A DNA stretch of 60,390 bases from an uncultured Bacteroidales bacterium (GCA_903913645.1 CAIWMA010000231.1:1-60390), one strand, 5' to 3'; counted from the stretch's first letter, positions 41,874 to 58,655 are shown. The notes: generated from the letters alone by a model not told the origin. Program-made: numbers and translations.

Positions 41874-43331
41874 CTAGAATTTGATGCGTTTTTCAATTTC
41901 TTCCACATAGGTACGGAATTGCTTGTCGGTCTCAATAAGGTTATTGACGGTGCGGCAGGCATGAAGTACTGTTGCATGGTCCTTGTTGCCACAATGCAGA
42001 CCGATAGTCGCCAGCGAAGCCTTAGTGTGCTTCTTAGAGTAATACATAGCTAGCTGACGGGCCTGAACAATATCGCGCTTGCGGGTTTTGGAGTTTATGG
42101 CATCAACAGGAATGTCGAAGTAATCGCAAACAATCTTCTGGATAAAATCAATTGATATTTCGCGTGCAGTGTTTTTTACGAATTTATCAATCATTTGCCT
42201 TGCCAGGTCGATAGTGATGGCTTTCTTATTTAATGACGACTGTGCCATTAATGATATAAGCGCTCCTTCCAGCTCGCGTACATTGGTTGTAATGCTGTAA
42301 GCAAGGTATTCGAGAACCTCGTAAGGCATATCAATTCCGTCCTTATACAATCTCTTTTTCAGAATGGCAATACGTGTTTCCAGATCTGGCACCTGTAAAT
42401 CGGCTGCCAGTCCCCATTTGAACCTTGACAATAACCTTGGCTCCAAGCCCTTTAATTCAACAGGCGCTTTATCGCTGGTGAGAATAAGTTGTTTGCCTTT
42501 TTGATGCAGGTGGTTGAAAATATGAAAGAAAACATCCTGCGTTTTTTCTTTCCCCGAAAGGAAATGAATATCGTCAATGATCAGTACATCGATCATCTGG
42601 TAAAAGTGAACAAAATCATTCTGGTTATTACTACGAACTGAATCTATAAATTGTTGCGTAAACTGCTCAGTTGCAACATATAAAACAGTTTTCTCAGGGA
42701 AATTATTCTTTACCTGCAAACCTATGGCCTGGGCAAGGTGAGTTTTGCCTAAACCAACCGGGCTGTATAGAAATAAAGGGTTAAATGCTGTTTTGCCAGG
42801 GTTACATGCAACTGCATAACCAGCTGAACGGGCTAACCTGTTGCAGTCACCTTCAATAAAATTATCGAAAGAGTAAGATTCGTTCAGTTGCGATTGAACC
42901 TGGATCTTTTTCAGACCGGGAATTACAAAAGGATTAGGTATTTCTTTCGATTTCCCTGCATTTAAATCAATCGGCATTTGCACTGATGGATTTGTGGTAG
43001 CTTTCCGGTTACTTGTTGGAATTTTGATAGTGTATGGATCGGAAGTATAAGCACCTTCCATTACAATGCTGTATTCTAGCCTTCCGTTTGGACCCAGTTC
43101 GTTGCGAATGGTTTTCTTCAGAAGTGTAATGTAATGTTCTTCCAGCCATTCATAAAAAAACTGGCTCGGAACCTGGATGGTGAGAATATTGTTATCCAGT
43201 TTAATTGCTTTAATAGGAGAAAACCAGGTTTTGAAGCTTTGATAGTTGAGGTTGTCGCGGATTACTTTAAGGCAATTTTCCCAAACTTCCTGATGAAGTT
43301 CTTTAATTCCTTCAATTTCGTTGTATTGCAT
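41874..43331 (-). CDS. dnaA: Chromosomal replication initiator DnaA
   Basis: FDNFIEGDCN, FNPLFLY..VGLGKTHL, LIIDDIHFL, RLLSRF, NVRELEGAL, domain IV RQLAMY...DHATVLHA. Confidence 0.98.
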   Translation of the reverse strand: MQYNEIEGIKELHQEVWENCLKVIRDNLNYQSFKTWFSPIKAIKLDNNILTIQVPSQFFYEWLEEHYITLLKKTIRNELGPNGRLEYSIVMEGAYTSDPYTIKIPTSNRKATTNPSVQMPIDLNAGKSKEIPNPFVIPGLKKIQVQSQLNESYSFDNFIEGDCNRLARSAGYAVACNPGKTAFNPLFLYSPVGLGKTHLAQAIGLQVKNNFPEKTVLYVATEQFTQQFIDSVRSNNQNDFVHFYQMIDVLIIDDIHFLSGKEKTQDVFFHIFNHLHQKGKQLILTSDKAPVELKGLEPRLLSRFKWGLAADLQVPDLETRIAILKKRLYKDGIDMPYEVLEYLAYSITTNVRELEGALISLMAQSSLNKKAITIDLARQMIDKFVKNTAREISIDFIQKIVCDYFDIPVDAINSKTRKRDIVQARQLAMYYSKKHTKASLATIGLHCGNKDHATVLHACRTVNNLIETDKQFRTYVEEIEKRIKF

Positions 43332-45470: not shown

Positions 45471-47444
45471 ATGAGAAAGATAATTACGCTTATAACAGCC
45501 ATTTTTGTTTCTGTTTTTGTTTCCGCCCAGGCACCTCAGAAAATGAGTTACCAGGCTGTAATCAGGGATGCCGGAAATACACTTGTAGTAAATCGTTCTG
45601 TTGGAATGAGGATAAGCATATTGCAGGGGACCTCGGCTATTTATGTTGAAACACAAACAGCAACAACCAATGCCAATGGATTGGTGACTATTGAAATTGG
45701 TGGTGGAACTGTAGTTTCTGGCAATTTTTCGACAATAAATTGGGCAAGTGGAGCCTATTCCATTAAAACCGAAACTGATCCGGTTGGAGGAACCAACTAC
45801 AGTATTACCGGAACGAGTAAATTGCTAAGTGTTCCTTATGCATTATTCTCGGCAAATGGCCCTCAAGGTATTCAAGGTCCGGCAGGGCCACAAGGTTTAA
45901 CAGGTCCTATCGGACCAATTGGTCCTACCGGATTGACTGGTCCAGCCGGTGCCAAAGGTTCAACAGGTGCAACAGGCCCAACAGGTGCAACTGGCCCAAC
46001 AGGTATTTCAGGTCCGGCTGGCCCAGCAGGAGTTTCAGGCCCGGCAGGTCCTGCGGGAGCTAAAGGATCAACAGGTGCAACTGGATTAACAGGGCCTACA
46101 GGTCCAATTGGCCCGACAGGCGCCACTGGCTCGGTGGGTCAAACAGGCGCAACTGGTGCAGCAGGGTCAACAGGTCCTGCAGGCATTTTAACATCCGGAT
46201 CTGCCGCAGGCAATACTCCATACTGGAACGGAACAGCCTGGATTACAAACAGTAGTAATATTTTTAATAATGGCGGTGCTGTTGGCATTGGCACTGCAAC
46301 ACCAGGTTTCCCATTAAACTTTTCCAACGCATTGGGCGATAAAATTTCGCTTTATGGGAACACAGGCGGCCATTATGGTTTTGGCGTGCAAGGTGCATTG
46401 CTGCAAATACACAGCGATGCATCAGCAGCAAATATTGCATTCGGGTATGGGTCAAGTGCAAGTTTTACCGAACGGATGCGAATCATCAATGCAGGTGGTG
46501 ACGGATTGTCATTGAATGGCCGCATGACCTTACGCAACGGCACCGTCCCATTAGACATTAACTATGGCAGCGGTATTTGGATGTACAAAGCTGACAACTC
46601 TGCAGCTCTTGGTTTTATGGGTGTGCAAAACAATCAAAACCTGGGTTTTTATGGCGGGCCAGGTGGTTGGGGGTTTACTTATGATGCACTGAACAGTCGC
46701 GTGGGAATCGGCAATAACAATCCCAACGCACCGCTTGCATTTGCAGCATCCCTGGGAAAAAAAATAACCTTATATCCCGGTACCACTGGTGATGTTGGCT
46801 TTGGTGTTGCTGGTAACCGCTTGCAGATTTACGCTGATAATCCAAATGCAGATGTGGCTATTGGTTATGATGCAGCAGGAACATTTAATGAACGCTTTGC
46901 AGTAAAGGCTAATGGTGCACTTGCTGTAAATAGTAATACAGGAACTGCAGGGCAAGTATTGCAGAGCAATGGGGGAGCAAGTGCTGCCAAATGGGGATAT
47001 ACTCCATCTGTTGTTTTTTTTACTACCCAAGGTAGCATCACGTTAAATGGCACAGATTTATGTACCGATATTACAGGCATAAATGGAAATGTTTTTACTA
47101 TTGCTGCAGCATCAATGATTACATATTCCTATTCTATTCCACTTTTTGGTATTAGTGGTCCATTGTCGTCAACAGGATTTGTGATTATTCAAATATTAGA
47201 TGCTAATGGAAACCAGGTTTCAGCAACTAACTCGGTTTTTACAGTCGAAAGCTATATAGCTCGAACTATTAACCTAACAGGTGTAGGCGATCTTGCTGCT
47301 GGTACCTATACGATAATTGCAAAATTAGCGCGGATATCAGTTGGAGAAGGAGATACTAAAAACCTGGTTGCTAGTTTTAATCTTTGTTCAGAATTTGTGG
47401 GAGTTTACCCCGGTCAATTGATCATATCTATTTTCCCAAAATAA
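45471..47444 (+). CDS. Secreted collagen-like / tail-fibre-like protein
   Basis: Signal peptide VSA|Q, Bacteroidota N-domain (SYQAVIRD...LLSVPYAL), 37 consecutive Gly-X-Y triplets, two VGIG-initiated fibre-shaft repeats, beta-rich C-terminal head. Confidence 0.85.
45858..46190 (+). repeat. Collagen Gly-X-Y repeat (37 triplets, Thr/Pro/Ala-rich)
   Basis: GPQ GIQ GPA ... GST GPA GIL, uninterrupted. Confidence 0.95.
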
Positions 47445-47719: not shown

Positions 47720-47803
47720 CCTTTTTCAATGATTTCGAACATATTACATAAATATCATGTTTTTACATGATGTTAAACCTTTTATTTTGAAACGATATTT
47801 GCA
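47720..47803 (+). promoter_or_regulatory. Upstream element copy 2: ATCATG-N6-CATGAT palindrome (47754-47771) plus GATATTTGCA (47794-47803)
   Basis: Near-identical to 45324-45407; lies about 22 nt before the probable start at 47826. Confidence 0.7.
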
Positions 47804-47825: not shown

Positions 47826-49940
47826 ATGAAAAGAAATATTCTTGCTTTTGTTTTTTTAGTAACAGTTGGTTTCTCGTTTGCGCAAACAAAAACCAAACCG
47901 GTAGAAAAGCCTCCCACTCAAAAGGAGATGGAGGAAATGATGAAAGAGGTGCAGCAGGGAATGGACAGTATTAGCCCGGAAGATAAAAAGGCAATGGAGG
48001 ACATGGGTGTTAAATTGCCTTCAATGAATGGTATGCCTCAATTGACCGACCAACAAATGCAGGATGCAAGTGCTGCGAACGAAAGGATTGTACCGGAAAA
48101 AGATATTGCCAGGATTGCAAGTATTTCTAAAGTTCCGCTGACGAATAGTTCTCTGCCATCATTCTTATCCGCAACCCATGCCAATGTTGTGGCTTTGCTA
48201 AAACCATTATCACAATCAAAAGGGGAGGAGCTTTACCAGTTATTAAAAACCGAACATAATTCCATTGCTGAAATCGGCAATACAGCAGCAGGTTTATGGA
48301 TGATGGGCCGCGCAGAAATTGCTCTTTATTTGACTGGCAAAGCATGCATTGCAGATCAGGCAAATACAGATAACCTGAGCAATTATGCATCCATGTTATC
48401 CATGTCTGGTGCTGAACAATTGGCAATTCCCATTCTGGATAATTTAAACAAACGCTTTCCGGATAACAGCACAATACTCAACAATATCGGCCAGGCCTGG
48501 TTTGGCCTGGGCGATATGGATGAAGCAAATAAATATTTAGACAAAACAATTCGTATTTGTGCCGCTCATCCACAAGCAAATTTTACGAAATCTTTTATAC
48601 TGGAAAGCAAAGGTAACATGCGAGGCGCAGTTGAAGCAGCTGTTGCCAGCACTAAAGCCGGCTATAGCCAGGAGAAGGAAAACCGGCTGAGTAAATTAGG
48701 ATATGATCTGAAAAGTGATGATGTACAATGGGATAAGCCAATGCCGCAGGATCCGCTGGGCCTTGAAAAGTTCAGGTGGCCTGCTTTCCCAATGTCAGTG
48801 GAAACCAGTAAAGGGTTGGAGAATGAATGGGATGCTTTCAGGGAGTCATGTGCTGAAGAACTGGAAAAATTACAAAGCCAGGAGGCTGAATTGATAGAAG
48901 TCGCAAATTCTGTCAGCGATATGCGCAATAAGCAGTTACTCGGAGCCGGCTCCAAAGGGCAGGCTGCTTCACTTTTCCCGCCCCTGGCATATAAGGCTTT
49001 TGTAAAGTTAAAATACCTGGTTGATGATAAGGACGGGCATATAGCATTTTCATCCGCAAAAAAAACAGAAGCTATAGTGCAGGCAAATACTGATCTGGAC
49101 ATTCTTTATAATGCCTATTCCGATCAAATTAAAGCTTTAAATGAGATGTATGGAAAAAAATTTGGCGAAGGCAAGGAAAATCCTTTCAAGGAGGCATGCA
49201 ATGATTTTAATGGTGCAACAAGTAATTATTTAAGCGCAGCCAATTCTCTATTGGAGCGAACACAAATTGATTACCTGAATTTCCTGCGTCGTCGGCTCAA
49301 TGACCAGATTTATTACGACCAGTACACCAAATGGCCCGAACAATTTGAAGTTGAAAAAGTTCTTGCAAAAGAAAAATGGCTGGCATCGATATCAGGTATG
49401 ACAGTTAAGTTTATGAACATAAGCAATTATTGCTTTCAAAATGAGGAAGTTAAACCAGGTAAGTTTTTGCTATCCGAATTTGATGATGTACATTGTGAAT
49501 ACCATAGCGAGTATAAATCACCGGTTGGCAGTATAAATATTGACTGCAGCAGAATGACAACCAAACTGGACCTGAAAGCTATAAAACTTGGATTAAAGCA
49601 GGATATGAATAAGGAAACTTTTGGCGACCAGTTTATGTCATGCTCAGTTGAGGTGGGAGCTAGTGCCAGTGCCGGTGTTAATTTAGGACCGCTAAAAGCT
49701 GAAGCCTCTGCCGGTGTTGCTTTAGGAGTTGAAATTGACCGCACCGGAGTAACAGATGTTATTGTAAAAGGATCGGCAGGTGTAAGCGCCGGTTCTGACA
49801 TTATAAGTGGCGGAAGTAAGGCTGGAGTAGGCGTGAGTGATGTTTCAGTAGAGGCAGGAGTAGAAGGACAGGTAAGCATAATGAGTGGAAAATCCTCTGT
49901 TGGAGGCACCGGGGTTCTATCAGGAGCATTTAAACATTAA
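47826..49940 (+). CDS. Secreted TPR-containing protein with helical middle and Gly/Ala/Val-rich C-terminal region
   Basis: Signal peptide MKRNILAFVFLVTVGFSFA|Q (start moved from 47757, whose ATG lies inside the palindrome); TPR-like ILNNIGQAWFGLGDMDEANKYL; C-terminal SVEVGASASAGV...AEASAGV. Confidence 0.75.
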   Translation: MKRNILAFVFLVTVGFSFAQTKTKPVEKPPTQKEMEEMMKEVQQGMDSISPEDKKAMEDMGVKLPSMNGMPQLTDQQMQDASAANERIVPEKDIARIASISKVPLTNSSLPSFLSATHANVVALLKPLSQSKGEELYQLLKTEHNSIAEIGNTAAGLWMMGRAEIALYLTGKACIADQANTDNLSNYASMLSMSGAEQLAIPILDNLNKRFPDNSTILNNIGQAWFGLGDMDEANKYLDKTIRICAAHPQANFTKSFILESKGNMRGAVEAAVASTKAGYSQEKENRLSKLGYDLKSDDVQWDKPMPQDPLGLEKFRWPAFPMSVETSKGLENEWDAFRESCAEELEKLQSQEAELIEVANSVSDMRNKQLLGAGSKGQAASLFPPLAYKAFVKLKYLVDDKDGHIAFSSAKKTEAIVQANTDLDILYNAYSDQIKALNEMYGKKFGEGKENPFKEACNDFNGATSNYLSAANSLLERTQIDYLNFLRRRLNDQIYYDQYTKWPEQFEVEKVLAKEKWLASISGMTVKFMNISNYCFQNEEVKPGKFLLSEFDDVHCEYHSEYKSPVGSINIDCSRMTTKLDLKAIKLGLKQDMNKETFGDQFMSCSVEVGASASAGVNLGPLKAEASAGVALGVEIDRTGVTDVIVKGSAGVSAGSDIISGGSKAGVGVSDVSVEAGVEGQVSIMSGKSSVGGTGVLSGAFKH

Positions 49941-49944
49941 AACG

Positions 49945-50937
49945 ATGATTAAGAAAACCATTATTCTAATTGCATTTGTGCTTACAGCACTGAGTTCAGT
50001 TGCGCAGGATTGCTCGCAGGAAGATTTGGCTCAAAAACCCGGCACCTGGAAAGCTGGTCAGCAAGGTTCAATTCATAATGTCACAGCAGCTGACCTGGCA
50101 AAAGAAAAGGCAGTATTATCCGGTATTCATAAAATGGTTTCATCGAATTACTCTCCTACAGGATGCCAGATTTCATACAGCACCGTTTTTGGGAAAGTCC
50201 CAATGGAAGGTCAAATATTTAAAGCAGATCCTTACTATTATTCTATGTACATTCTACGGTACCTATGTGATCAAAACAGCGCGGATAAGTCGAAATATTA
50301 TGTAGATATTTCAACCCCTACAACAGTTGATATTGTAGCTAATCAAATCGACTGCCTGAATACATTGTACGCCGCCAATCTTGCTGATGATGATTTCAGG
50401 GGTTATCTAAAACTCAAACAACGGCCACAAAAAAAAGATGGAGTTTGGTTTATGGGTGATGAAGTAGTAGGTGATTCTGGTACAGCATATGAAATAAAAG
50501 AATCCACCTGGCTGATTACCTTTAGTGACACACTTCCATTTATATATGTCACCCGTAAAGAATATCTTTTGATTGAAAGGAAAAGACTGGAGAAATCAGT
50601 AAAAGACAGCCCTGGTGAGAAGGAATATTTCCAAAAATTCCTCGATAATATCAGTGAGTATTTAACCAAGCCAGAGAGCGAATTAAGCCAGCCCGCCATC
50701 TGTTTGTGGAATGACGAAGAAAGGTTTACCGGTTTTGTTGATGAAGGCACCCTGGGCTCTTTTTTTGCAATAAAGCCAAATCTTTCATACTACAAGAAAA
50801 ACCTACCGAAGTCATCGCCACAATTTTTTACTGTTGTCTATACATTATCACTCGGAGATCCGGTGTTTGAGGCAAATATAGCAGCAATAAAAGAAGCCGT
50901 TGATTTTGCCAAGCTGAAAAGCATGCTTGGGAAATAG
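49945..50937 (+). CDS. Secreted hypothetical protein
   Basis: Signal peptide MIKKTIILIAFVLTALSSVA|Q; ATG 4 nt after the previous stop; no recognised family. Confidence 0.7.
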   Translation: MIKKTIILIAFVLTALSSVAQDCSQEDLAQKPGTWKAGQQGSIHNVTAADLAKEKAVLSGIHKMVSSNYSPTGCQISYSTVFGKVPMEGQIFKADPYYYSMYILRYLCDQNSADKSKYYVDISTPTTVDIVANQIDCLNTLYAANLADDDFRGYLKLKQRPQKKDGVWFMGDEVVGDSGTAYEIKESTWLITFSDTLPFIYVTRKEYLLIERKRLEKSVKDSPGEKEYFQKFLDNISEYLTKPESELSQPAICLWNDEERFTGFVDEGTLGSFFAIKPNLSYYKKNLPKSSPQFFTVVYTLSLGDPVFEANIAAIKEAVDFAKLKSMLGK

Positions 50938-51039: not shown

Positions 51040-52659
51040 ATGAAAAAAGTTTTTATACTAATCGTTTTTGCAGCCTTATTGGCCAGTTCAGAAGCACAAA
51101 CACCTGTGAAATCCGTAGCTAAACCAGCAACCGGCAGTTCACTTTTAAGTGGAATTTACTTTGCTCCATCCGGAAGTTCAATTATTCTGCAGAATAATGC
51201 TAAAAACGACCTTACTATTACTGCGAAAAAGGAAGTTGGCCTGGTGTATAGCAAAAATGCTTTCAGTTTTGCGACACCTTTTCCTAATGGAATCAAATAC
51301 AAAGTCTCCGTTAAAAAAGCACCTGCCGGGCAAACCTGTATCATTAACACGGGAAGTGAAGGAACAATGCCACAAAGTACAAACTCACTCCGGATTTGCA
51401 GCGATTATACATACGACAATGTAAGCCGGAGCTCTGATGATAAGACTTTCAGCACTTTTTACGAAAGCTCTGATCCGGATGTGGGTGGGGCATCAGGCGA
51501 AGACGGACGCTATGTTGTTTTTGTTTCCTCGGCAACTTTTGCAGGTTCTACTGGTAAACACCGGCAGATATTCTGGCGCGACCGCAACACAGGTACAACT
51601 AAACTGGTAAGTGCTTCCGCCAGCGGTCAGGAAGGCGATGGAGATAGTTATTATCCCGCCATTTCTGGCGATGGTAAAACAGTCGCCTTCGAATCGTATT
51701 CAACCAACCTGGTTGATGGTGATAAAAATGGGTACAGGGATATTTTTGTCTGGCATTCCGCTACCGGCAAAATACAAACGGTAAGCATTGGCAAAAATGG
51801 CGCTTCTGCTGATGCCGAGAGTTATGAAGCTACGGTTTCAGGTGATGGAAACCTGATAGCATTTACTTCAGCTGCCAGCAATATTTCAGAAATAGAAAAA
51901 GGCGTTTCCAATAACAATGTTTTTATTCGGGATATGTCGGCTGGCATTACCACAATGATCAGTGTTGATCCCAGAGCGAAAAAAGGCGGCGGCGGTTCCA
52001 AACCTTCCATTTCCTACGATGGCAGTAGGGTAGCGTTTTACTCTCATACTGAAACCCTGGTTCCTAACGACAACAACGGACTTTGGGATATCTTTTTATG
52101 GGAGAAAGGTGTTAATGCGCTTAAACGGATAAGCCTTACCTCGGATCATAAGGAGCGCAACCAGGGCAACGAAAGTGCCAATAGGGTAGTAGCTCCGGCT
52201 ATTTCAGGAAATGGTCGCTACATTGCTTATGCAACTACTGCCACCAACATGGTTCCTAACGATAACAATAATTTCCAGGATGTTTTTCTTTACGACAGCA
52301 ATACCGACAGTACAATAATGGTTAGCAACGCCAACGATGGCAAACAAGGAAATTCGGACAGTCCAATAGGGCAGGGAGAAAAAATTGCCATTACGTTTGA
52401 CGGAAGCTGGTTAGCTTTTTCGACCAACGCTACCAACCTGGGCGTGCCAGCAGCAAACGTAGTAATGCATAACAGAGCCACTGGGCAAAACAAGGCGGTT
52501 TCAACAGTGGTTGGGAGTAGTGTAGGCCGTGCAACCTTTTCGCAGCAAGGCGGCTATGTTGTATTTGGAATAGGAGGCAAAATTGACAGCAGATTTCAGT
52601 CATCGGGAATTTTTGCAAACTTTACCGGCGTTGGCCCATGCCGGTTTTGTCCGGAATAA
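51040..52659 (+). CDS. Secreted protein with Ig-like N-domain and TolB/PD40-like beta-propeller
   Basis: Signal peptide SEA|Q; LQNN...FSF.T...G..Y.V.V...P.GQTC module; repeated P.ISGDG..VAF.S..TNLV..D.N...DIF blades; C-terminal CRFCP. Confidence 0.8.
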   Translation: MKKVFILIVFAALLASSEAQTPVKSVAKPATGSSLLSGIYFAPSGSSIILQNNAKNDLTITAKKEVGLVYSKNAFSFATPFPNGIKYKVSVKKAPAGQTCIINTGSEGTMPQSTNSLRICSDYTYDNVSRSSDDKTFSTFYESSDPDVGGASGEDGRYVVFVSSATFAGSTGKHRQIFWRDRNTGTTKLVSASASGQEGDGDSYYPAISGDGKTVAFESYSTNLVDGDKNGYRDIFVWHSATGKIQTVSIGKNGASADAESYEATVSGDGNLIAFTSAASNISEIEKGVSNNNVFIRDMSAGITTMISVDPRAKKGGGGSKPSISYDGSRVAFYSHTETLVPNDNNGLWDIFLWEKGVNALKRISLTSDHKERNQGNESANRVVAPAISGNGRYIAYATTATNMVPNDNNNFQDVFLYDSNTDSTIMVSNANDGKQGNSDSPIGQGEKIAITFDGSWLAFSTNATNLGVPAANVVMHNRATGQNKAVSTVVGSSVGRATFSQQGGYVVFGIGGKIDSRFQSSGIFANFTGVGPCRFCPE

Positions 52660-52722: not shown

Positions 52723-53241
52723 ATGAAAGCAATCATTTTAATCCTGTTACTGTCTCCGATTTTTGTATTTTCACAAAAATCCAATATTTTTATTAAACTC
52801 ACCGATGCCCATGGTCAGCAAATTAAAGGTGACGCAACAGAGAAGGGCTATGAAAGGTGGCTGGGGTCTTCCACTGTTCATTCTTCGGGGAAAAACAATA
52901 CATCCTTCAGTTTCATGATGACTATTTCAGGAGCTTCAGCTGATTTGAAAAGAGCAATGACCAACGGCGAATTACTTATTGACGGGCAAGTTGTTGTTAC
53001 AGCATTGGATCCAATGGGATCAGGCAGGATGATTACGAGTTACACTATTAAGATGGAAAGTATTTCTGTTTTAACGTGCGAAGAATCTGTGGGTTGCAAT
53101 GGTGTGATGAATACATCTGTGACCTTGCAGGCAACCCGGATTGGATGGACATATTACCAGACTGGCAAAACCGGCTCGCCAGTTGTATCAAAAAAATATG
53201 GATGGGATGCAGGAAATGATAAGGAATGGACTAATTTTTAA
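52723..53241 (+). CDS. Hcp (T6SS tube, Hcp1-type)-like protein with N-terminal Sec signal peptide
   Basis: Signal peptide MKAIILILLLSPIFVFS|Q, then IFIKL...IKGD, FSF...S..L..A...G, YTIKME...V, SVTL...IGWTY, KYGWD, matching the Hcp1 motif order as I recall it. Confidence 0.7.
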   Translation: MKAIILILLLSPIFVFSQKSNIFIKLTDAHGQQIKGDATEKGYERWLGSSTVHSSGKNNTSFSFMMTISGASADLKRAMTNGELLIDGQVVVTALDPMGSGRMITSYTIKMESISVLTCEESVGCNGVMNTSVTLQATRIGWTYYQTGKTGSPVVSKKYGWDAGNDKEWTNF

Positions 53242-53339: not shown

Positions 53340-54925
53340 ATGAAAAAAATATGCTTTGTTTTCCTTTTCAGTATGTTACTGGGGAATTTATTTGCCAGAA
53401 GGAAACTTTCGATTTGTTTGCCTATTTACCACCAGCAGGGTGGAAAAAGGAAGTTACTGAAAACATTATCAGTTACACCGGTTTTAATAATAAAACTAAA
53501 GCCTGGTGCCGGATTGGTATCGTGAAAAGCACAACCAGTAAAGGGAACGTAGAAGCTGATTTTGAAAGCGAATGGCAGGATCTGGTTGTAAGAAACTATA
53601 ATCCCACAGAAGCTCCCGTTCTGAATGAAGTGCGTGAAACTGACGGATGGAAAGTTAAAGATGGGGTTGTGAAATTTAGATTTAACAATGCGGATGCCCA
53701 GGCTATGCTTACAACCATAAGCGGATTCGACCGTTGCGCAAGCATTGTCGTCACACTCAATAACCAGGAGTATTTAGAAAATATTGACGCATTTCTAAAG
53801 TCTGTTGAATTCAAAAAGATAGAAACATCTGCTCTCCCGGTTTCTGTAAACTATTCAGACGATACTTCCATTGTTGGTACCTGGGGAAATTCCATGACTT
53901 ACAATCAGCAGTCCGGGGATCTTGTTGTTCATGTTATGGGCTATGGTTACACAGCTAATCAATATACTTTCAATAGCAATAACACGTACTATTTTGTATC
54001 AAAAACTTTTTTGGCTTCTGATAACAAGATGCTATTGGTAAAAGAAAATGGTAATTACCAGATTAGCGGAAATAATATCACTATAGAACCATTAAATAGT
54101 GTAACAGAGTCCTGGAGCAAGAAGGATAGTCTTGATTCTCAAGGTCGGCAGGCCGGAGTAGACAAATGGGGCAAAGTTTTGTCAAGCCAAAAACGAGCAC
54201 TGGAAAAAGTAAATTATACGTTGACCAAACATTATTTTTCCGGTATTCAACAATGGAATCTGGTATTTCAATCTAATACTGCAACTCAAAGAGATGGTCC
54301 TTTCAGTAGCAATACTACTTTCAGTAATGCATGGTATTACAGTCCCATTTCATCCAACAATCCTGTTATAGAATTACCATATGGGCAAAAAATAACAGCA
54401 GATAACACAAAACCAGAACAACCTACTTCAATTACCGAAAACACAACACTTCTTGGCACATGGTGCATAAGTGCAAGCGACCAGTTAAATTACCGGGTTA
54501 AAAATGGTGTTGTGAGTACAATCTTTCGTCAATATACATTTAAAGCAAATGGCACTTACAATTGTAACATTAAAACGTTCGATCCGCTTTTAAATTCCAA
54601 TCTTTTGGGAAGAGAAAGCGGAAATTATAAAATCACAGGAACCAATCTAACCATCGATCCCCTAAAAAGTGTATTAGAAGAATGGAGCAAAATAAATGGC
54701 GCAGATCAATGGGGCCTGCTTTTAAAAACACAAAATGTTATCCTTGAAAAGGTGACATATAGTTTTAGCAAAATTTATGTTCCCGAATCAAGTGAATGGC
54801 AGCTTATTTTGAAAACCGCCAATCAAACAAAGAGAGATGGCCCTTTTAATAATTATGAGGGCAATGCATGGATATATATCATCACTTCACCATCCCATCC
54901 TTTAATTAAGTTACCTGGTGAATAA
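53340..54925 (+). pseudogene. Secreted protein with two tandem lipocalin-like domains, split by a 1-nt frameshift at about 53396 (pseudogene or sequence error)
   Basis: The frame starting at 53340 gives signal peptide MKKICFVFLFSMLLGNLFA; the -1 frame continues QKETFDL. GCC and CAG share the C at 53396, so one extra C restores FA|QKET. Confidence 0.75.
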
Positions 54926-56228: not shown

Positions 56229-58655
56229 TTATTCAAAAACAATCTTCATCTCTACCCGCCTGTTTTTTTGCCGGCCTTCGGGAGTTGTATTTTCCGCAAT
56301 AGGTTTAGTTTGTCCAAACCATTCTGCTTTTATGCGATCGGGTTCAATACCATTTTTTACAAGGTAATCCTTTACAGCCAAAGTTCGGTTTTTCGACAAA
56401 GTCAGATTTGATTCCGGCTTGCCAACATTGTCGGTATGCCCGGAAAGTGACAATTTGAATTCGCTGCGTTTTTTCATCACATTAGCAAGTCCGTCGAGCG
56501 ATCCTAAAGAAGCTTTTTTAATGACCGATTTGCCAGTTTCAAATTCAAGATTATCAAATGCTTTTTGAAGAATTTCCTGCTCTTCTTTTTTTATTTCCGG
56601 GCAGCCATTATTTTGAGCAATCCCCGGTATGGTAGGGCAAAGATCGTATTTATCCGAAATTCCGTCACCATCTGTATCCGGACAACCTTTAAAGACCGCC
56701 GTACCTCGGATGCTTGGGCAATCATCGTCTTTATCGGGAATGCTGTCGTTATCACTATCCAGGTAAGGACATCCCTGGTTTTCAATTGGGCCTTTTATTC
56801 CAGGGCATTTATCGGATTCATCAATAATTCCGTCACCATCGCTGTCAATAAAAGGGCAGCCTTTGTTCTCACGCGTACCGGCAACGGTAGGGCAGTTGTC
56901 ATCTTTATCAGCTATACCATCACCATCCTGGTCCGGGCAACCTTTCATCTTAACTGAACCGGCATTGTAAGGGCATTCATCATTCTCGTCGATGATGCTA
57001 TCGCCATCGCTGTCAGGGCAACCATTAAACGCAGCAATGCCTTTCACATTAGGGCACAGGTCATTTTGGTCAATTATTCCATCGCCATCGGTATCAGGAC
57101 ATCCATTAAATTCTTTCAACCCTGCTACATCAGGACATCTGTCTTTTTCATCGGTTATACCATCCTCATCCGCATCCGGGCAGCCATCAAGTGCGAACAC
57201 ACCCGGAACCTTGGGGCATAAGTCTTTTTTGTCTGATACTTTATCATTGTCGCGGTCGTGCGGACTTCCGTACATTATTGGAATTTTTAATACAGCTGAA
57301 GCAGATGTGCCGTACCTGTTTTTAGAAGATGCAAGTAAGGAGAAAATATCGTTTGAACCAATCCAGAGCGGTCCGATCCGCATCCCAAATCCCACGTTCC
57401 ATTGTTTAAAGGAATTATATTGTACAGGTACCGAAACCCCAAACCATTTTTTATCGTAACGGGGAACCAGGTTATAGGTTGAAATATAGTGTACTTTATT
57501 TACAATATTATTCCCACGATTAAGAGCAATAAAGGGAGTGAAATTAACATATAAACCTTCAGCAACCCTAACATCGGCCTGCATACTAAGGCTTGTCGGT
57601 AGTCGCTGTGTGAATTTATCGGAAGGACTGGCAAGATCAAATGAATCGGCAATAAATTTGTTGAAATCATCAATAGACTGTATTCCTAAATCGCCTACAA
57701 CCAGGTTCTGAATATCCGCAGTAAAATCGCGGCTGTCAGGATTTCTGCGGTAACGAACACTTCCAAGGTCTGAGGCTGTAAATCCAATCCTGAACAGGTA
57801 TTTGTCCTGGTCCCTGCGCCACAAATTGGTTTTACCATCCATATCGTATTTGTATTTCATCCAGTCAGGACGATATTCGTAGACAATTCCAAAATCGAAA
57901 GATATGGAAGGATTGGTGTTGAAGCGGTAGGTGAAATCCTGGGTCAGATTATCGGAGGTTCCATAGTTTGTGTAAGTATTAAAAATAGAAACTGCACTGG
58001 AATCCTTAACCTCATAATTAAGATTTTTCATGAAAACATAAGCAGAACCTAAGCCCTGGTTTATTTTTATTGTAGTTCCGGCTTTCAGAAAGTGCTTTTC
58101 CCTGTCCATAAGTACACGTGCATAGGTAAAGCCATACTCCACCCACGAATTTACCTGTGTATTTAAATTCTCATTCTTAAGTTTGATGTTCCAGAGATCG
58201 GTTTCCTCATTGAGTCCGTCGAGCAGCATGGCAAGGGATTCGGTCATGTTATCGATATTAATAATCGATCGCACCGATGGCGTAAATGCAATAGCACTCT
58301 TGTCGGAAAGCGTGACCATAAAAGAGAAAATATCCTGTTTCTCACTGATTATCCCGGTTTTATCAGATCCGTTCATGGTTCGTGAAACATATGGTCCCTG
58401 AAAGTCAAGGCTTTTCAGTAATTTCGGATGAGTTAGAATGTATGGATCAAAGCTGTAGAAGGTATTATAAAAATTAACATCCGTTGAGAATAGAGCCATG
58501 TCGAACTTATACCGACTATCGGCGATTGAAGCAGGCTGCAATTGAACGCCCGTAATTCCTGCATAATTGCTGGTTGCAAATGGCAGGAAACTTTGTGATT
58601 TCGTTTGTAAACTTAAAAGTATTGTAAATATGGGGAGGAAGAGTAGCTTTTTCAT
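56229..58655 (-). CDS. Outer-membrane protein: DUF5723-like beta-barrel + 8 thrombospondin type-3 repeats + OmpA-like peptidoglycan-binding domain
   Basis: Signal peptide TKS|Q; SNYAG...QPASIADSR; eight D.D.DG..D..D.CP...GCP units (56598-57257); GHTDNVG, LSKNR, NRRVE. Confidence 0.88.
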   Translation of the reverse strand: MKKLLFLPIFTILLSLQTKSQSFLPFATSNYAGITGVQLQPASIADSRYKFDMALFSTDVNFYNTFYSFDPYILTHPKLLKSLDFQGPYVSRTMNGSDKTGIISEKQDIFSFMVTLSDKSAIAFTPSVRSIINIDNMTESLAMLLDGLNEETDLWNIKLKNENLNTQVNSWVEYGFTYARVLMDREKHFLKAGTTIKINQGLGSAYVFMKNLNYEVKDSSAVSIFNTYTNYGTSDNLTQDFTYRFNTNPSISFDFGIVYEYRPDWMKYKYDMDGKTNLWRRDQDKYLFRIGFTASDLGSVRYRRNPDSRDFTADIQNLVVGDLGIQSIDDFNKFIADSFDLASPSDKFTQRLPTSLSMQADVRVAEGLYVNFTPFIALNRGNNIVNKVHYISTYNLVPRYDKKWFGVSVPVQYNSFKQWNVGFGMRIGPLWIGSNDIFSLLASSKNRYGTSASAVLKIPIMYGSPHDRDNDKVSDKKDLCPKVPGVFALDGCPDADEDGITDEKDRCPDVAGLKEFNGCPDTDGDGIIDQNDLCPNVKGIAAFNGCPDSDGDSIIDENDECPYNAGSVKMKGCPDQDGDGIADKDDNCPTVAGTRENKGCPFIDSDGDGIIDESDKCPGIKGPIENQGCPYLDSDNDSIPDKDDDCPSIRGTAVFKGCPDTDGDGISDKYDLCPTIPGIAQNNGCPEIKKEEQEILQKAFDNLEFETGKSVIKKASLGSLDGLANVMKKRSEFKLSLSGHTDNVGKPESNLTLSKNRTLAVKDYLVKNGIEPDRIKAEWFGQTKPIAENTTPEGRQKNRRVEMKIVFE

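What the first reader, a model, noticed from the sequence alone, without database searches (positions are those of the whole stretch)
52723..53241. Hcp-like tube protein with a Sec signal peptide, a shortened stacking loop and no T6SS context
Seen: a 17-aa signal peptide followed by a ~155-aa domain with Hcp1 motifs in order (FIK..KG[D/E], FSF..S..L..A..G, Y.I.[L/M]E..V, VTL...I.W.Y, KYGW). The Gly-rich loop between the second and third strands looks roughly 15 aa shorter than in P. aeruginosa Hcp1 as I recall it, and a close Cys pair (TCEESVGC) is present. Established: Hcp forms hexameric rings that stack into the T6SS tube and chaperone effectors, lacks signal peptides, and Bacteroidota T6SS-iii uses a divergent TssD family. 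Inference: a domesticated, exported Hcp acting as a periplasmic or extracellular ring (chaperone, pore adaptor or fibre hub), perhaps disulfide-stabilised and unable to polymerise like canonical Hcp.
Basis: partly seen in the sequence, partly recalled or inferred. Interest (0 to 1): 0.85.

Follow-up and report, generated by a model that had tools for sequence, protein, structure and literature searches.

The report
Sec-exported Hcp-like protein outside T6SS
This gene encodes a protein with the fold of the type VI secretion tube subunit Hcp, but it carries a conserved export signal and sits in an operon of exported envelope proteins in bacteria with no detectable type VI system, so the tube protein appears to have been put to another, still unknown use outside the cytoplasm.

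Summary
The ORF 52723-53241 (+) is real. It encodes a 17-residue Sec signal peptide followed by an Hcp fold: Pfam T6SS_HCP scores 28.1 bits against a cut-off of 23.5, and the AF2 model aligns to solved Hcp1 structures at Z about 19. Mature residue 19 aligns with Hcp residue 2, so the leader is an add-on placed in front of the fold. A hydrophobic leader is present in 118 of 120 close homologues and in 88 of 92 full-length distant representatives. A Cx5C pair is present in 118 of 120 close homologues. The region up to the third strand is 10-13 residues shorter than in Hcp1. No host genome passed the Bacteroidota TssD cut-off (0 of 11). The window's genome does carry an unlinked eCIS with its own tube proteins. 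The gene is usually the last in a same-strand operon of exported proteins: a TPR protein, an unknown ~620-aa protein, and one to five paralogues with a shared PsbP-like N-domain. A TPR histidine kinase and a LuxR regulator often lie beside the operon. A four-copy model gives a head-to-tail interface (ipSAE 0.42, best control 0.01). Export and independence from T6SS are well supported. Ring formation is supported only by modelling. The function is inferred. Databases label the family "T6SS tube protein Hcp". Six literature searches found no description of it.

The parts
52723..52773 (+). Signal peptide, residues 1-17 (MKAIILILLLSPIFVFS). The predicted SPase I cut is before Q18, which fits the Bacteroidetes Q-rule.
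   Evidence: Sequence. P12 and Q18 are invariant in A1. A hydrophobic leader is present in 118 of 120 close homologues and 88 of 92 full-length representatives. This segment has pLDDT below 50 in the model. The Q-rule is described in PMC5837995 (abstract seen in the listing).
52774..53238 (+). Mature Hcp-fold domain, residues 18-172. The stop codon is at 53239-53241.
   Evidence: Pfam PF05638 at 28.1 bits against a 23.5 cut-off. AF2 mean pLDDT 85.7. Foldseek top hits are Hcp1 at E 1.5e-11. VIA-align gives Z 19.4-18.9, rmsd 1.7-2.5 over 135-150 residues, to Hcp1 of E. coli, Salmonella, Acinetobacter and P. aeruginosa.
52885..52902 (+). Short turn (residues 55-60, SGKNNT) where canonical Hcp1 has its long Gly-rich loop.
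   Evidence: Strands E47-54 and E61-67 in the model. Two 8-residue insertions in the 9qpe Hcp relative to the family profile, and the offset against 1y12. Long-loop relatives are visible in alignment A2.
53077..53097 (+). Cys119...Cys125 (Cx5C) at the tip of the hairpin between strands E103-123 and E129-147. This is a putative disulfide.
   Evidence: C125 is invariant and C119 is at least 90% conserved in A1. Cx5C occurs in 118 of 120 close homologues. Residues 118-125 lie in the modelled subunit interface. The S-S distance was not measured.
47826..49940 (+). Exported TPR protein (cluster 3). The likely start is the internal ATG that gives MKRNILAFVFLVTVGFSFA|QTK; the longest ORF starts at 47757.
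   Evidence: Relatives lie in 24 of 64 loci by BLAST and 26 of 64 by clustering, on the same strand upstream of the Hcp-like gene.
49945..50937 (+). Exported protein of unknown family (p350), with leader MIKKTIILIAFVLTALSSVA|QD.
   Evidence: No Pfam or NCBIfam hit. Relatives lie in 19 of 64 loci.
51040..52659 (+). Exported PD40 (TolB-like) beta-propeller protein, with leader ending SSEA|QT.
   Evidence: Pfam PD40 at E 9.9e-13. Relatives lie in 8 of 64 loci.
53340..54925 (+). Exported protein with a PsbP-like N-domain and two lipocalin-like repeats (cluster 1). In the window its signal peptide (frame of 53340) and its body (frame of 53351) are out of frame.
   Evidence: Lipocalin_4. N-domain model at pLDDT 92.9 with PsbP as top hit. 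Contigs of 4 of 4 other runs (3 studies) carry one more C at 53394, which joins the two frames. Relatives lie in 42 of 64 loci.
45471..47444 (+). Exported collagen-repeat protein upstream on the same strand. Whether it belongs to the operon is uncertain (312-nt gap).
   Evidence: Pfam Collagen at E 5.8e-15. Leader VSA|QAP. Relatives lie in only 2 of 64 loci.

Best explanation
The gene encodes an Hcp-fold protein that has been moved out of the cytoplasm. The Sec translocon exports it and signal peptidase I cuts before Gln18. By the Bacteroidetes Q-rule that Gln would become a pyroglutamate N-terminus. The protein has no lipobox and no type IX C-terminal domain, so its default location is the periplasm or cell envelope. 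There it most likely assembles head-to-tail into Hcp-like rings. The subunit interface in the model includes the hairpin with the conserved Cys119/Cys125 pair, which is probably a disulfide in the oxidising compartment. It is not a T6SS or eCIS tube subunit. It is an accessory, usually terminal, gene of an operon that encodes only exported proteins: a TPR protein, an unknown ~620-aa protein, paralogues with a shared PsbP-like N-domain and varied C-terminal domains, and sometimes PD40 or OmpA-domain proteins. In many relatives a divergent TPR-histidine kinase/LuxR pair lies beside the operon. My proposed role is a ring-shaped scaffold or holder for co-encoded envelope proteins, which would be a periplasmic counterpart of Hcp's chaperone role. 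What is shown: the fold, the conserved leader, the Cys pair, the operon context, and the lack of T6SS markers. What is modelled: self-association. What is inferred: the location, the disulfide, the ring stoichiometry, and the scaffold or holder role.
For: Fold. Pfam T6SS_HCP is above its cut-off, and 70 of 80 members of the wider alignment A2 match it at E <= 0.001. VIA-align gives Z 19.4 to Hcp1, with model residue 19 aligned to Hcp residue 2. Export. The leader is conserved in 118 of 120 close homologues and 88 of 92 full-length representatives (listing). Of the 4 exceptions among the 92, three show a leader just under my threshold and one is a fragment. Q18 is invariant in A1, which fits the Q-rule (PMC5837995 and PMC10653852, abstracts seen). 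Cysteines. Cx5C occurs in 118 of 120 close homologues. Long-loop relatives instead carry a Cys pair flanking the loop. Two different Cys pairs in one family fit an oxidising compartment. Not T6SS. TssD (PF17642) is over its cut-off in 0 of 11 host genomes, while it is found in 5 of 151 genomes of a phylum sample. VipB is found in 0 of 10 hosts and TssF in 0 of 1. Operon. Across 64 loci, cluster 1 lies in 56, cluster 2 in 30, the TPR protein in 26, the kinase in 23 and the regulator in 19. The order is consistently kinase/regulator (minus strand), then TPR, the ~620-aa protein, the paralogues and the Hcp-like gene on the plus strand, and nearly all of these proteins have leaders. All six consecutive plus-strand ORFs in the window have leaders ending in A/S-Q (with for the last). 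Self-association. Four copies of the mature protein give a median ipSAE of 0.42 against a best control of 0.01. That mark was reached by 20 of 30 solved same-chain pairs and 1 of 23 single chains in the tool's calibration. The runs agree in at least 94% of contacts and partner pLDDT is at least 81. One copy uses surface A (residues 19-22, 49-57, 92-94, 106-107, 142-146, 156-161, 168) on one neighbour and surface B (68-80, 118-129) on another.
Against: No experiment bears on location, cleavage, disulfide or oligomer. The complex model may pass from memory of solved Hcp hexamers, and it held four copies rather than six. The tool's calibration was made with two copies and with its own alignments. 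The partner idea is weakened by phyletic data. PsbP-like N-domain proteins occur in 19 of 45 genomes of the genus, while the Hcp-like gene occurs in 5 of 45. That leaves 15 genomes with the N-domain proteins but no Hcp-like gene, and one Hcp-like genome (66% complete) without them. Distant homologues L051 and L052 lack the upstream operon. The window has no adjacent kinase/regulator pair. Absence of T6SS rests on Pfam markers in incomplete or unscored assemblies, and VipB proved insensitive in this class. One genome (G106) has both TssD and this family, about 142 kb apart. The window's genome has an eCIS.
Confidence: 0.55

Rival explanations
1. It is an ordinary contractile-system tube subunit (T6SS or the genome's eCIS), and the hydrophobic N-terminus is a start-codon artefact or a tolerated extension.
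For: Databases name the family 'type VI secretion system tube protein Hcp'. The genome holds VgrG-like, PAAR, gp25 and tube genes on contigs C564 and C552.
Against: No alternative start lies between M1 and M65. The leader is conserved at the protein level down to about 25% identity. The eCIS has its own CIS_tube gene and two gp19-type tube genes. In the single-contig genome G036 the eCIS is 1.7 Mb from the Hcp-like gene. The eCIS occurs in 24 of 45 genomes of the genus, and in 3 of the 5 that carry the Hcp-like gene, so there is no association. TssD is over its cut-off in 0 of 11 hosts.
Confidence: 0.03
2. It is exported but does not form rings. It works as a monomeric or dimeric beta-barrel binding module or structural filler of the envelope, with the Hcp fold reused only as a stable scaffold.
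For: The long loop of canonical Hcp is missing. The gene is dispensable for the operon in 15 of 19 genomes of the genus that carry the N-domain proteins. A pass in the complex model can come from memory.
Against: The modelled contacts are head-to-tail and use two different faces, which is the geometry of a cyclic or open-ended oligomer and not of a closed dimer. The conserved C-terminal tail and the Cys hairpin lie in those faces.
Confidence: 0.2
3. It is a periplasmic defence element. An Hcp-like ring would act as a decoy or sponge for effectors delivered by attackers' T6SS, within an island of exported immunity-like paralogues.
For: Hcp rings hold effectors in their lumen (established knowledge, for example the abstract of PMC8262886 seen). 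The neighbouring paralogues are numerous and varied (153 members in 56 loci). Their N-domain fold also matches the T6SS immunity protein Tsi3 and Eag/SciW chaperones, though weakly (E about 1e-3, TMq 0.47-0.54). The distribution within the genus is patchy (5 of 45).
Against: The best fold matches of the N-domain are PsbP and BT_1490, not immunity proteins. No toxin or immunity Pfam family was found in the neighbours tested. PADLOC was not searched. The loci show no mobile-element features (not systematically tested).
Confidence: 0.08
4. It leaves the cell, in vesicles or by an unknown route, and acts outside as a surface or matrix ring, adhesin hub or fibre component.
For: A collagen-repeat exported protein and OmpA/TSP3 proteins are nearby in the window. 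Disulfides and a pyroGlu N-terminus stabilise extracytoplasmic proteins (PMC10653852, abstract seen).
Against: There is no type IX C-terminal domain and no lipobox. The whole mature chain is taken up by the Hcp fold. The collagen-like neighbour is found in only 2 of 64 loci.
Confidence: 0.1

Closest known systems
T6SS-i Hcp1 (Pfam PF05638; e.g. PDB 1y12, 4hkh, 4w64, 5xhh)
   Same: It has the same beta-barrel fold over the whole mature chain (Z 18.9-19.4, rmsd 1.7-2.5). The Pfam match is above the cut-off. The modelled lateral packing is head-to-tail.
   Different: It has a cleavable Sec leader. The region up to the third strand is 10-13 residues shorter. It has a conserved Cx5C pair and a conserved C-terminal ..EW..F tail. 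It has no T6SS genes nearby or, by the markers used, in the host. Sequence identity to solved Hcp1 structures is 13-20%.
Bacteroidota T6SS-iii TssD/Hcp (Pfam PF17642; PDB 6bdc, 7yw0)
   Same: It comes from the same phylum and has the same general tube-protein fold.
   Different: No PF17642 hit at E <= 1. The structural match is weaker (Z 12.4-12.9 over 107-108 residues) than the match to proteobacterial-type Hcp1. TssD proteins have no leader; matches begin at profile position 1 of ORFs of about 132 aa.
eCIS, phage and pyocin tube proteins (PF06841, PF19266)
   Same: They share a distant fold (Z 8-11). The host genome encodes such a system.
   Different: They belong to different Pfam families. 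They are assembled in the cytoplasm. They are unlinked to this gene.
PF05638 proteins with a PEP-CTERM sorting signal
   Same: They are another set of Hcp-domain proteins expected to be exported. A large survey of Hcp domains removed them (PMC8262886, passage in the methods section 'Phylogenetic tree construction').
   Different: None of the 92 full-length representatives here has a PEP motif in its last 45 residues. This family is from Bacteroidota and its members end at the Hcp fold. I saw only that one sentence, and no description of such proteins.

Membership tests
Pfam T6SS_HCP (PF05638), sequence family | Profile match above the gathering score | tested here: met
   28.1 bits against 23.5, E 2.8e-6, residues 39-144 on profile positions 25-129. 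70 of 80 members of A2 match at E <= 0.001.
Hcp structural family | Hcp beta-barrel fold over the whole domain | tested here: met
   AF2 pLDDT 85.7. Foldseek E 1.5e-11. VIA Z 19.4, rmsd 1.9, 135 residues aligned.
Hcp structural family | Hexameric ring | tested here: inconclusive
   Only four copies could be modelled. ipSAE was 0.42 against a control of 0.01, with a head-to-tail interface. Stoichiometry is not shown, and the result may come from memory of solved Hcp rings.
T6SS tube protein (functional class TssD/Hcp) | Made without a signal peptide and assembled in the cytoplasm inside the sheath | tested here: not met
   A conserved Sec/SPI leader is present in 118 of 120 and 88 of 92 sequences. 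Canonical Hcp genes of the same phylum start directly at the first strand (L076, L077).
T6SS tube protein (functional class TssD/Hcp) | Host encodes the T6SS core (sheath, baseplate, spike) | tested here: not met
   TssD is over its cut-off in 0 of 11 hosts, VipB in 0 of 10 and TssF in 0 of 1. Caveats: assemblies are incomplete, and VipB is insensitive for T6SS-iii here. The VgrG-like, PAAR and gp25 genes in the own genome belong to an eCIS.
T6SS tube protein (functional class TssD/Hcp) | Ring-on-ring stacking into a tube | not testable with these tools
   This needs a 12-chain model or EM.
Bacteroidota TssD (PF17642) | Profile match | tested here: not met
   No PF17642 hit at E <= 1.
Bacteroidetes Sec/SPI substrates obeying the Q-rule | n-h-c leader followed by Gln at +1 | tested here: met
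   ..VFS|QK; Q18 is invariant in A1. A small residue, then A/S, then Q occurs within the first 45 residues in 111 of 120 close homologues.
Bacteroidetes Sec/SPI substrates obeying the Q-rule | Cleavage and pyroglutamate formation | not testable with these tools
   This needs N-terminal mass spectrometry.

The most novel reading that the evidence does not exclude
A phage-tail/T6SS tube protein has been domesticated twice over in Bacteroidota. Freed from any contractile machine and sent through Sec, it forms disulfide-stapled rings in the periplasm. These rings serve as the hub of an undescribed envelope system controlled by a two-component pair. The rings would hold the shared PsbP-like N-domains of a polymorphic set of exported proteins, as a periplasmic version of Hcp's effector chaperoning, or alternatively soak up effectors injected by rivals' T6SS.
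Probability: 0.2. Interest if true: 0.85.

Novelty: new variant of a known kind. Interest (0 to 1): 0.62.

Why it matters
Hcp is treated as a marker of T6SS, and genome pipelines name this family "T6SS tube protein Hcp". If these proteins are exported and work without a T6SS, such annotations mislead surveys that count Hcp genes. It would also mean the tube fold has a second life as an extracytoplasmic ring. That would give a simple case for studying how a self-assembling ring is re-targeted, and a first handle on a widespread but uncharacterised operon of Chitinophagaceae-type bacteria from soil and fresh water. Cultured carriers exist for experiments: Terrimonas pollutisoli, Terrimonas sp. 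R1 and Ferruginibacter sp. SUN106.

Tried and rejected
- NCBIfam gave no hit for the protein.
- A single-sequence search of PDB sequences gave only chance hits, E 0.45. The profile search reached Hcp1 at E 5.8e-4.
- The genome search with PF05638 did not recover the window's own gene at E <= 1, so that route is too insensitive for this family. The family alignment did recover it.
- VipB (PF05943) was rejected as a T6SS marker for this class. It was found in only 4 of 151 genomes, none of them in the same class, and it missed the TssD-positive genomes G070, G094, G106 and G170.
Four copies were run instead.
- No RNA holder was listed for the stretch, so nothing can be said on expression.
- The promoter/terminator scan gave 35 promoter-like sites against 24.6 expected and 5 terminators against 8.8 expected, which is not informative. 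No plus-strand terminator lies between the operon genes.
- The PsbP-like N-domain profile had no PDB sequence hit at E <= 1.
- The ESM Atlas returned only 'hypothetical protein' clusters for the ~620-aa neighbour and Hcp-named clusters for the query.
- p350 and the lipocalin-like protein are not detectably similar to each other, although single-linkage clustering put them in one cluster.
- Six literature searches and passages read in two papers gave no description of a signal-peptide Hcp family. Supplements were closed and were not seen.
- Earlier findings of the scan were not open.

Full report
**The observation.** The ORF 52723..53241 (+) encodes 172 residues. No in-frame ATG, GTG or TTG lies between M1 and M65/M66. 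The first strand of the predicted fold begins at residue 21. Translation must therefore start at M1 to make the domain. The first 17 residues (MKAIILILLLSPIFVFS) form a classical leader and are followed by Q18.

Pfam T6SS_HCP matches residues 39-144 at 28.1 bits against a gathering score of 23.5. NCBIfam has no model for the protein.

An AF2 model built on 22 homologues has a mean pLDDT of 85.7. Only residues 8-17, inside the leader, fall below 50. Foldseek against the PDB returns Hcp1 proteins first (4w64 at E 1.5e-11; 64 matches at E <= 0.001).

VIA-align gives these matches:
- Z 19.4, rmsd 1.9, 135 residues aligned, to E. coli Hcp1.
- Z 18.9, rmsd 2.3, 142 residues aligned, to P. aeruginosa Hcp1.
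- Z 12.4-12.9 to the Bacteroidota T6SS-iii Hcp structures 6bdc and 7yw0.
- Z about 8-11 to pyocin, eCIS and phage tubes.

Model residue 19 aligns with residue 2 of the solved Hcps. The leader is therefore an addition placed exactly in front of a complete Hcp fold.

The loop where Hcp1 has its long Gly-rich stretch is short here. HMM position 55 aligns with residue 51 of 1y12, which makes the mature protein 13 residues shorter up to that point. Model residues 19..169 span residues 2..162 of 1y12, a difference of 10.

**The family.** The word-indexed search found 335 proteins at E <= 0.001 among 373 candidates. Of the 120 listed, 119 carry a precomputed PF05638 hit. Several are named Hcp by JGI or NCBI, from Terrimonas pollutisoli, Ferruginibacter sp. 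and Cyclobacteriaceae.

A profile search of 1.84 billion cluster representatives found only 204 at E <= 0.001, of which 86 are at E <= 1e-10 and 26 at E <= 1e-30. This is a small, distinct family and not the bulk of Hcp proteins.

By a simple hydropathy test (mean Kyte-Doolittle >= 2.0 over 10 residues within the first 45), 118 of 120 close homologues have the leader. The two exceptions are one N-terminally truncated record and one with an over-long called start whose leader lies further in. Of the 92 representatives of 140-260 aa, 88 pass. Of the other four, three show a visible leader just under my threshold and one is a fragment. This is my own crude test, not SignalP.

In A1, P12 and Q18 are invariant. 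A Gln after the cut site is the Bacteroidetes Q-rule for SPase I substrates, where the Gln is cyclised to pyroglutamate (PMC5837995 and PMC10653852; I saw only the abstracts in the listing).

The Cys pair C119/C125 is found as Cx5C in 118 of 120 close homologues, and 112 of 120 have exactly two Cys in the mature part. More distant members keep a long loop and instead carry a Cys pair that flanks that loop. Two different conserved Cys pairs in one family fit an oxidising, extracytoplasmic location. This is an inference, and I could not measure the S-S distance in the model.

The protein has no lipobox Cys. It has no room for a type IX C-terminal domain, because the mature chain is entirely the Hcp fold.

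**No T6SS, but an eCIS.** In the window's genome (593 contigs, 93% complete) the searches found no VipB, TssD or TssF.

VipB turned out to be a poor marker. In a sample of 151 genomes of the phylum it was found in only 4, all outside the class. It missed G070, G094, G106 and G170, which do have TssD. I therefore rely on TssD (PF17642), which was found in 5 of 151.

TssD is over its cut-off in 0 of 11 genomes that carry the family. These are the own genome, four of the same genus, G182, and five reached through named loci, including Terrimonas and Ferruginibacter. One shows a sub-threshold 18.7-bit match inside an 808-aa ORF. VipB was found in 0 of 10.

One genome, G106, has both TssD and two members of this family, the nearer about 142 kb from TssD. 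Co-occurrence is therefore possible, but the genes are unlinked.

Against a simple "no contractile system" reading, the own genome has eCIS genes. CIS_tube, a VgrG-like protein, PAAR and gp25 lie on the 3970-bp contig C564, and two gp19-type tube genes lie on C552. This eCIS has its own tube proteins. CIS_tube occurs in 24 of 45 genomes of the genus, and in 3 of the 5 that carry the Hcp-like gene. In the single-contig genome G036 it lies 1.7 Mb away from the Hcp-like gene. I see no link between the two.

**Distribution.** The close family (A1) is found in 5 of 45 genomes of the genus and in 3 of 301 genomes sampled across the phylum. With the wider profile A2, 15 of 301 match. The matches that begin at profile position 1 are the own genome and four genomes of one family of the same class. 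Most of the others begin at positions 16-25, that is, without the leader. Those of G056, G079 and G083 lie about 0.5-1 kb from VipB genes. Two such genes read (L076, L077) start directly at the first strand.

**Context.** I took 64 loci from species-representative genomes, called ORFs mechanically, and clustered them by BLAST with single linkage at E 1e-8 and at least 50% coverage. The clusters are therefore loose.

| Cluster | What it is | Loci (of 64) |
|---|---|---|
| 0 | The Hcp-like gene | 61 |
| 1 | Proteins of about 460 aa, 153 members | 56 |
| 2 | Proteins of about 620 aa, no Pfam family | 30 |
| 3 | TPR protein of about 720 aa | 26 |
| 4 | TPR + HisKA_3 + HATPase kinase | 23 |
| 6 | Response_reg + GerE regulator | 19 |
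| 5 | M48 peptidase | 23 |

The recurring layout is kinase and regulator on the minus strand. On the plus strand follow the TPR protein, the ~620-aa protein, one to five cluster-1 paralogues, and then the Hcp-like gene. Housekeeping genes come after it (M48 peptidase, two SET-domain genes, fmt). Nearly all operon products have leaders. Some cluster-2 relatives carry an OmpA peptidoglycan-binding domain.

In the window the order is as follows:
- A collagen-repeat protein, whose membership in the operon is uncertain.
- The TPR protein.
- p350.
- A PD40 propeller protein.
- The Hcp-like gene.
- A protein with lipocalin-like repeats.

The gaps between the genes from the TPR protein onward are 4 nt (between the TPR stop at 49940 and the p350 start at 49945), 102 nt, 63 nt and 98 nt. 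One search printed 13 for the first of these because I used 49954 as the p350 start there. There is no adjacent kinase or regulator.

The last gene looks frameshifted in the window, but contigs of 4 of 4 other runs (3 studies) have one more C at 53394. That extra base joins its leader to ..A|QKETF... The same contigs show no difference within the covered parts of the Hcp-like ORF.

**The neighbours' shared domain.** 63 proteins in 40 of 64 loci share a domain of about 150 residues directly after the leader, with varied C-terminal parts. Its model (pLDDT 92.9) matches PsbP best (E 2.7e-5, TMq 0.61). BT_1490, Apa/MTC28, Mog1 and DcrB follow. Matches to Tsi3 and to Eag/SciW chaperones are weaker. 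This is the PsbP/Mog1-like fold, common in extracytoplasmic binding proteins.

The domain is found in 19 of 45 genomes of the genus, including 4 of the 5 with the Hcp-like gene. That leaves 15 genomes that have the domain without the Hcp-like gene. The Hcp-like protein is therefore an accessory of this operon and not a necessary partner.

**Self-association.** Four copies of the mature protein (alignment of 80 rows) scored ipSAE 0.37, 0.45 and 0.42, against a best control of 0.01. In the tool's calibration, 20 of 30 solved same-chain pairs and 1 of 23 single chains reached that mark. The runs agree in at least 94% of contacts, and partner pLDDT is at least 81.

The scored copy touches one neighbour with the face made of residues 19-22, 49-57, 92-94, 106-107, 142-146, 156-161 and 168. 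It touches another neighbour with the helix 68-80 and the Cys hairpin 118-129. This is a head-to-tail chain, as in a ring.

Hcp hexamers are solved, so the pass may be memory. It shows likeness, not that this protein binds itself. Stoichiometry and stacking were not tested.

**Reading.** The core reading is firm: an Hcp fold behind a conserved Sec leader, in an operon of exported proteins, without T6SS.

I propose that the protein forms rings in the periplasm or envelope and serves as a scaffold or holder for co-encoded proteins. This part is inference, and the phyletic data weaken it. Rival readings are given separately.

Six searches of the paper library found no description of such a family. 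The nearest mention is one sentence in the methods of PMC8262886 saying that PF05638 genes with a PEP-CTERM signal were removed from a survey. None of the representatives here has such a signal.

Noticed in passing
Not in the window: proteins P0160, P0167, P0191, P0205, P0210: These are single polypeptides of 1142-1591 aa with six tandem T6SS_HCP domains. Pfam finds 6 stretches in each of the 3 tested, P0167, P0191 and P0210. They have no leader. Ig-like, cadherin or RTX domains follow in some. They would be a covalent pseudo-hexameric Hcp ring fused to a cargo. One search ('tandem Hcp' / 'Hcp domains') showed no description among the 12 papers listed of 56.
   Followed up: partly
window 53340-53400: The gene after the Hcp-like one has its signal peptide in one frame and its body in another. 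Contigs of 4 of 4 other runs (3 studies) carry one more C at 53394 and read through. The frameshift is therefore most likely an error or a rare variant of this assembly.
   Followed up: yes
G000 contigs C564 (1-3970) and C552: An eCIS-type contractile injection system lies in the same genome: CIS_tube, a VgrG-like protein (Phage_base_V/GPD), PAAR and gp25 in a row, plus two gp19-type tube genes. CIS_tube occurs in 24 of 45 genomes of the genus.
   Followed up: partly
Alignment A2, e.g. P0169, P0183, P0197, P0242, P0254: Distant signal-peptide Hcp-like proteins keep the long loop and carry a Cys pair at its two ends, instead of the Cx5C hairpin pair of the window's subfamily.
   Followed up: partly
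Loci L001, L018, L025, L031, L051, L052 and others: An M48 peptidase gene with a hydrophobic N-terminal leader lies in 23 of 64 loci. It directly follows the Hcp-like gene in six of them, including L051 and L052, which lack the upstream operon. This may be conserved synteny or a functional link.
   Followed up: no
window 56229-58655 (-): An 808-aa exported protein with DUF5723, thrombospondin type 3 repeats and a C-terminal OmpA domain. It is 80-82% identical to genes in L013 and L023, which look like close relatives of the window's organism.
   Followed up: no
The genome search: PF05943 (VipB) gave no match in four same-class or same-order genomes that have PF17642 TssD genes. VipB alone therefore under-counts T6SS-iii with this tool.
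   Followed up: partly
window 41874-43331 (-): dnaA lies about 9 kb upstream of the operon (Bac_DnaA, E 1.5e-62), so the locus may be near the replication origin.
   Followed up: no
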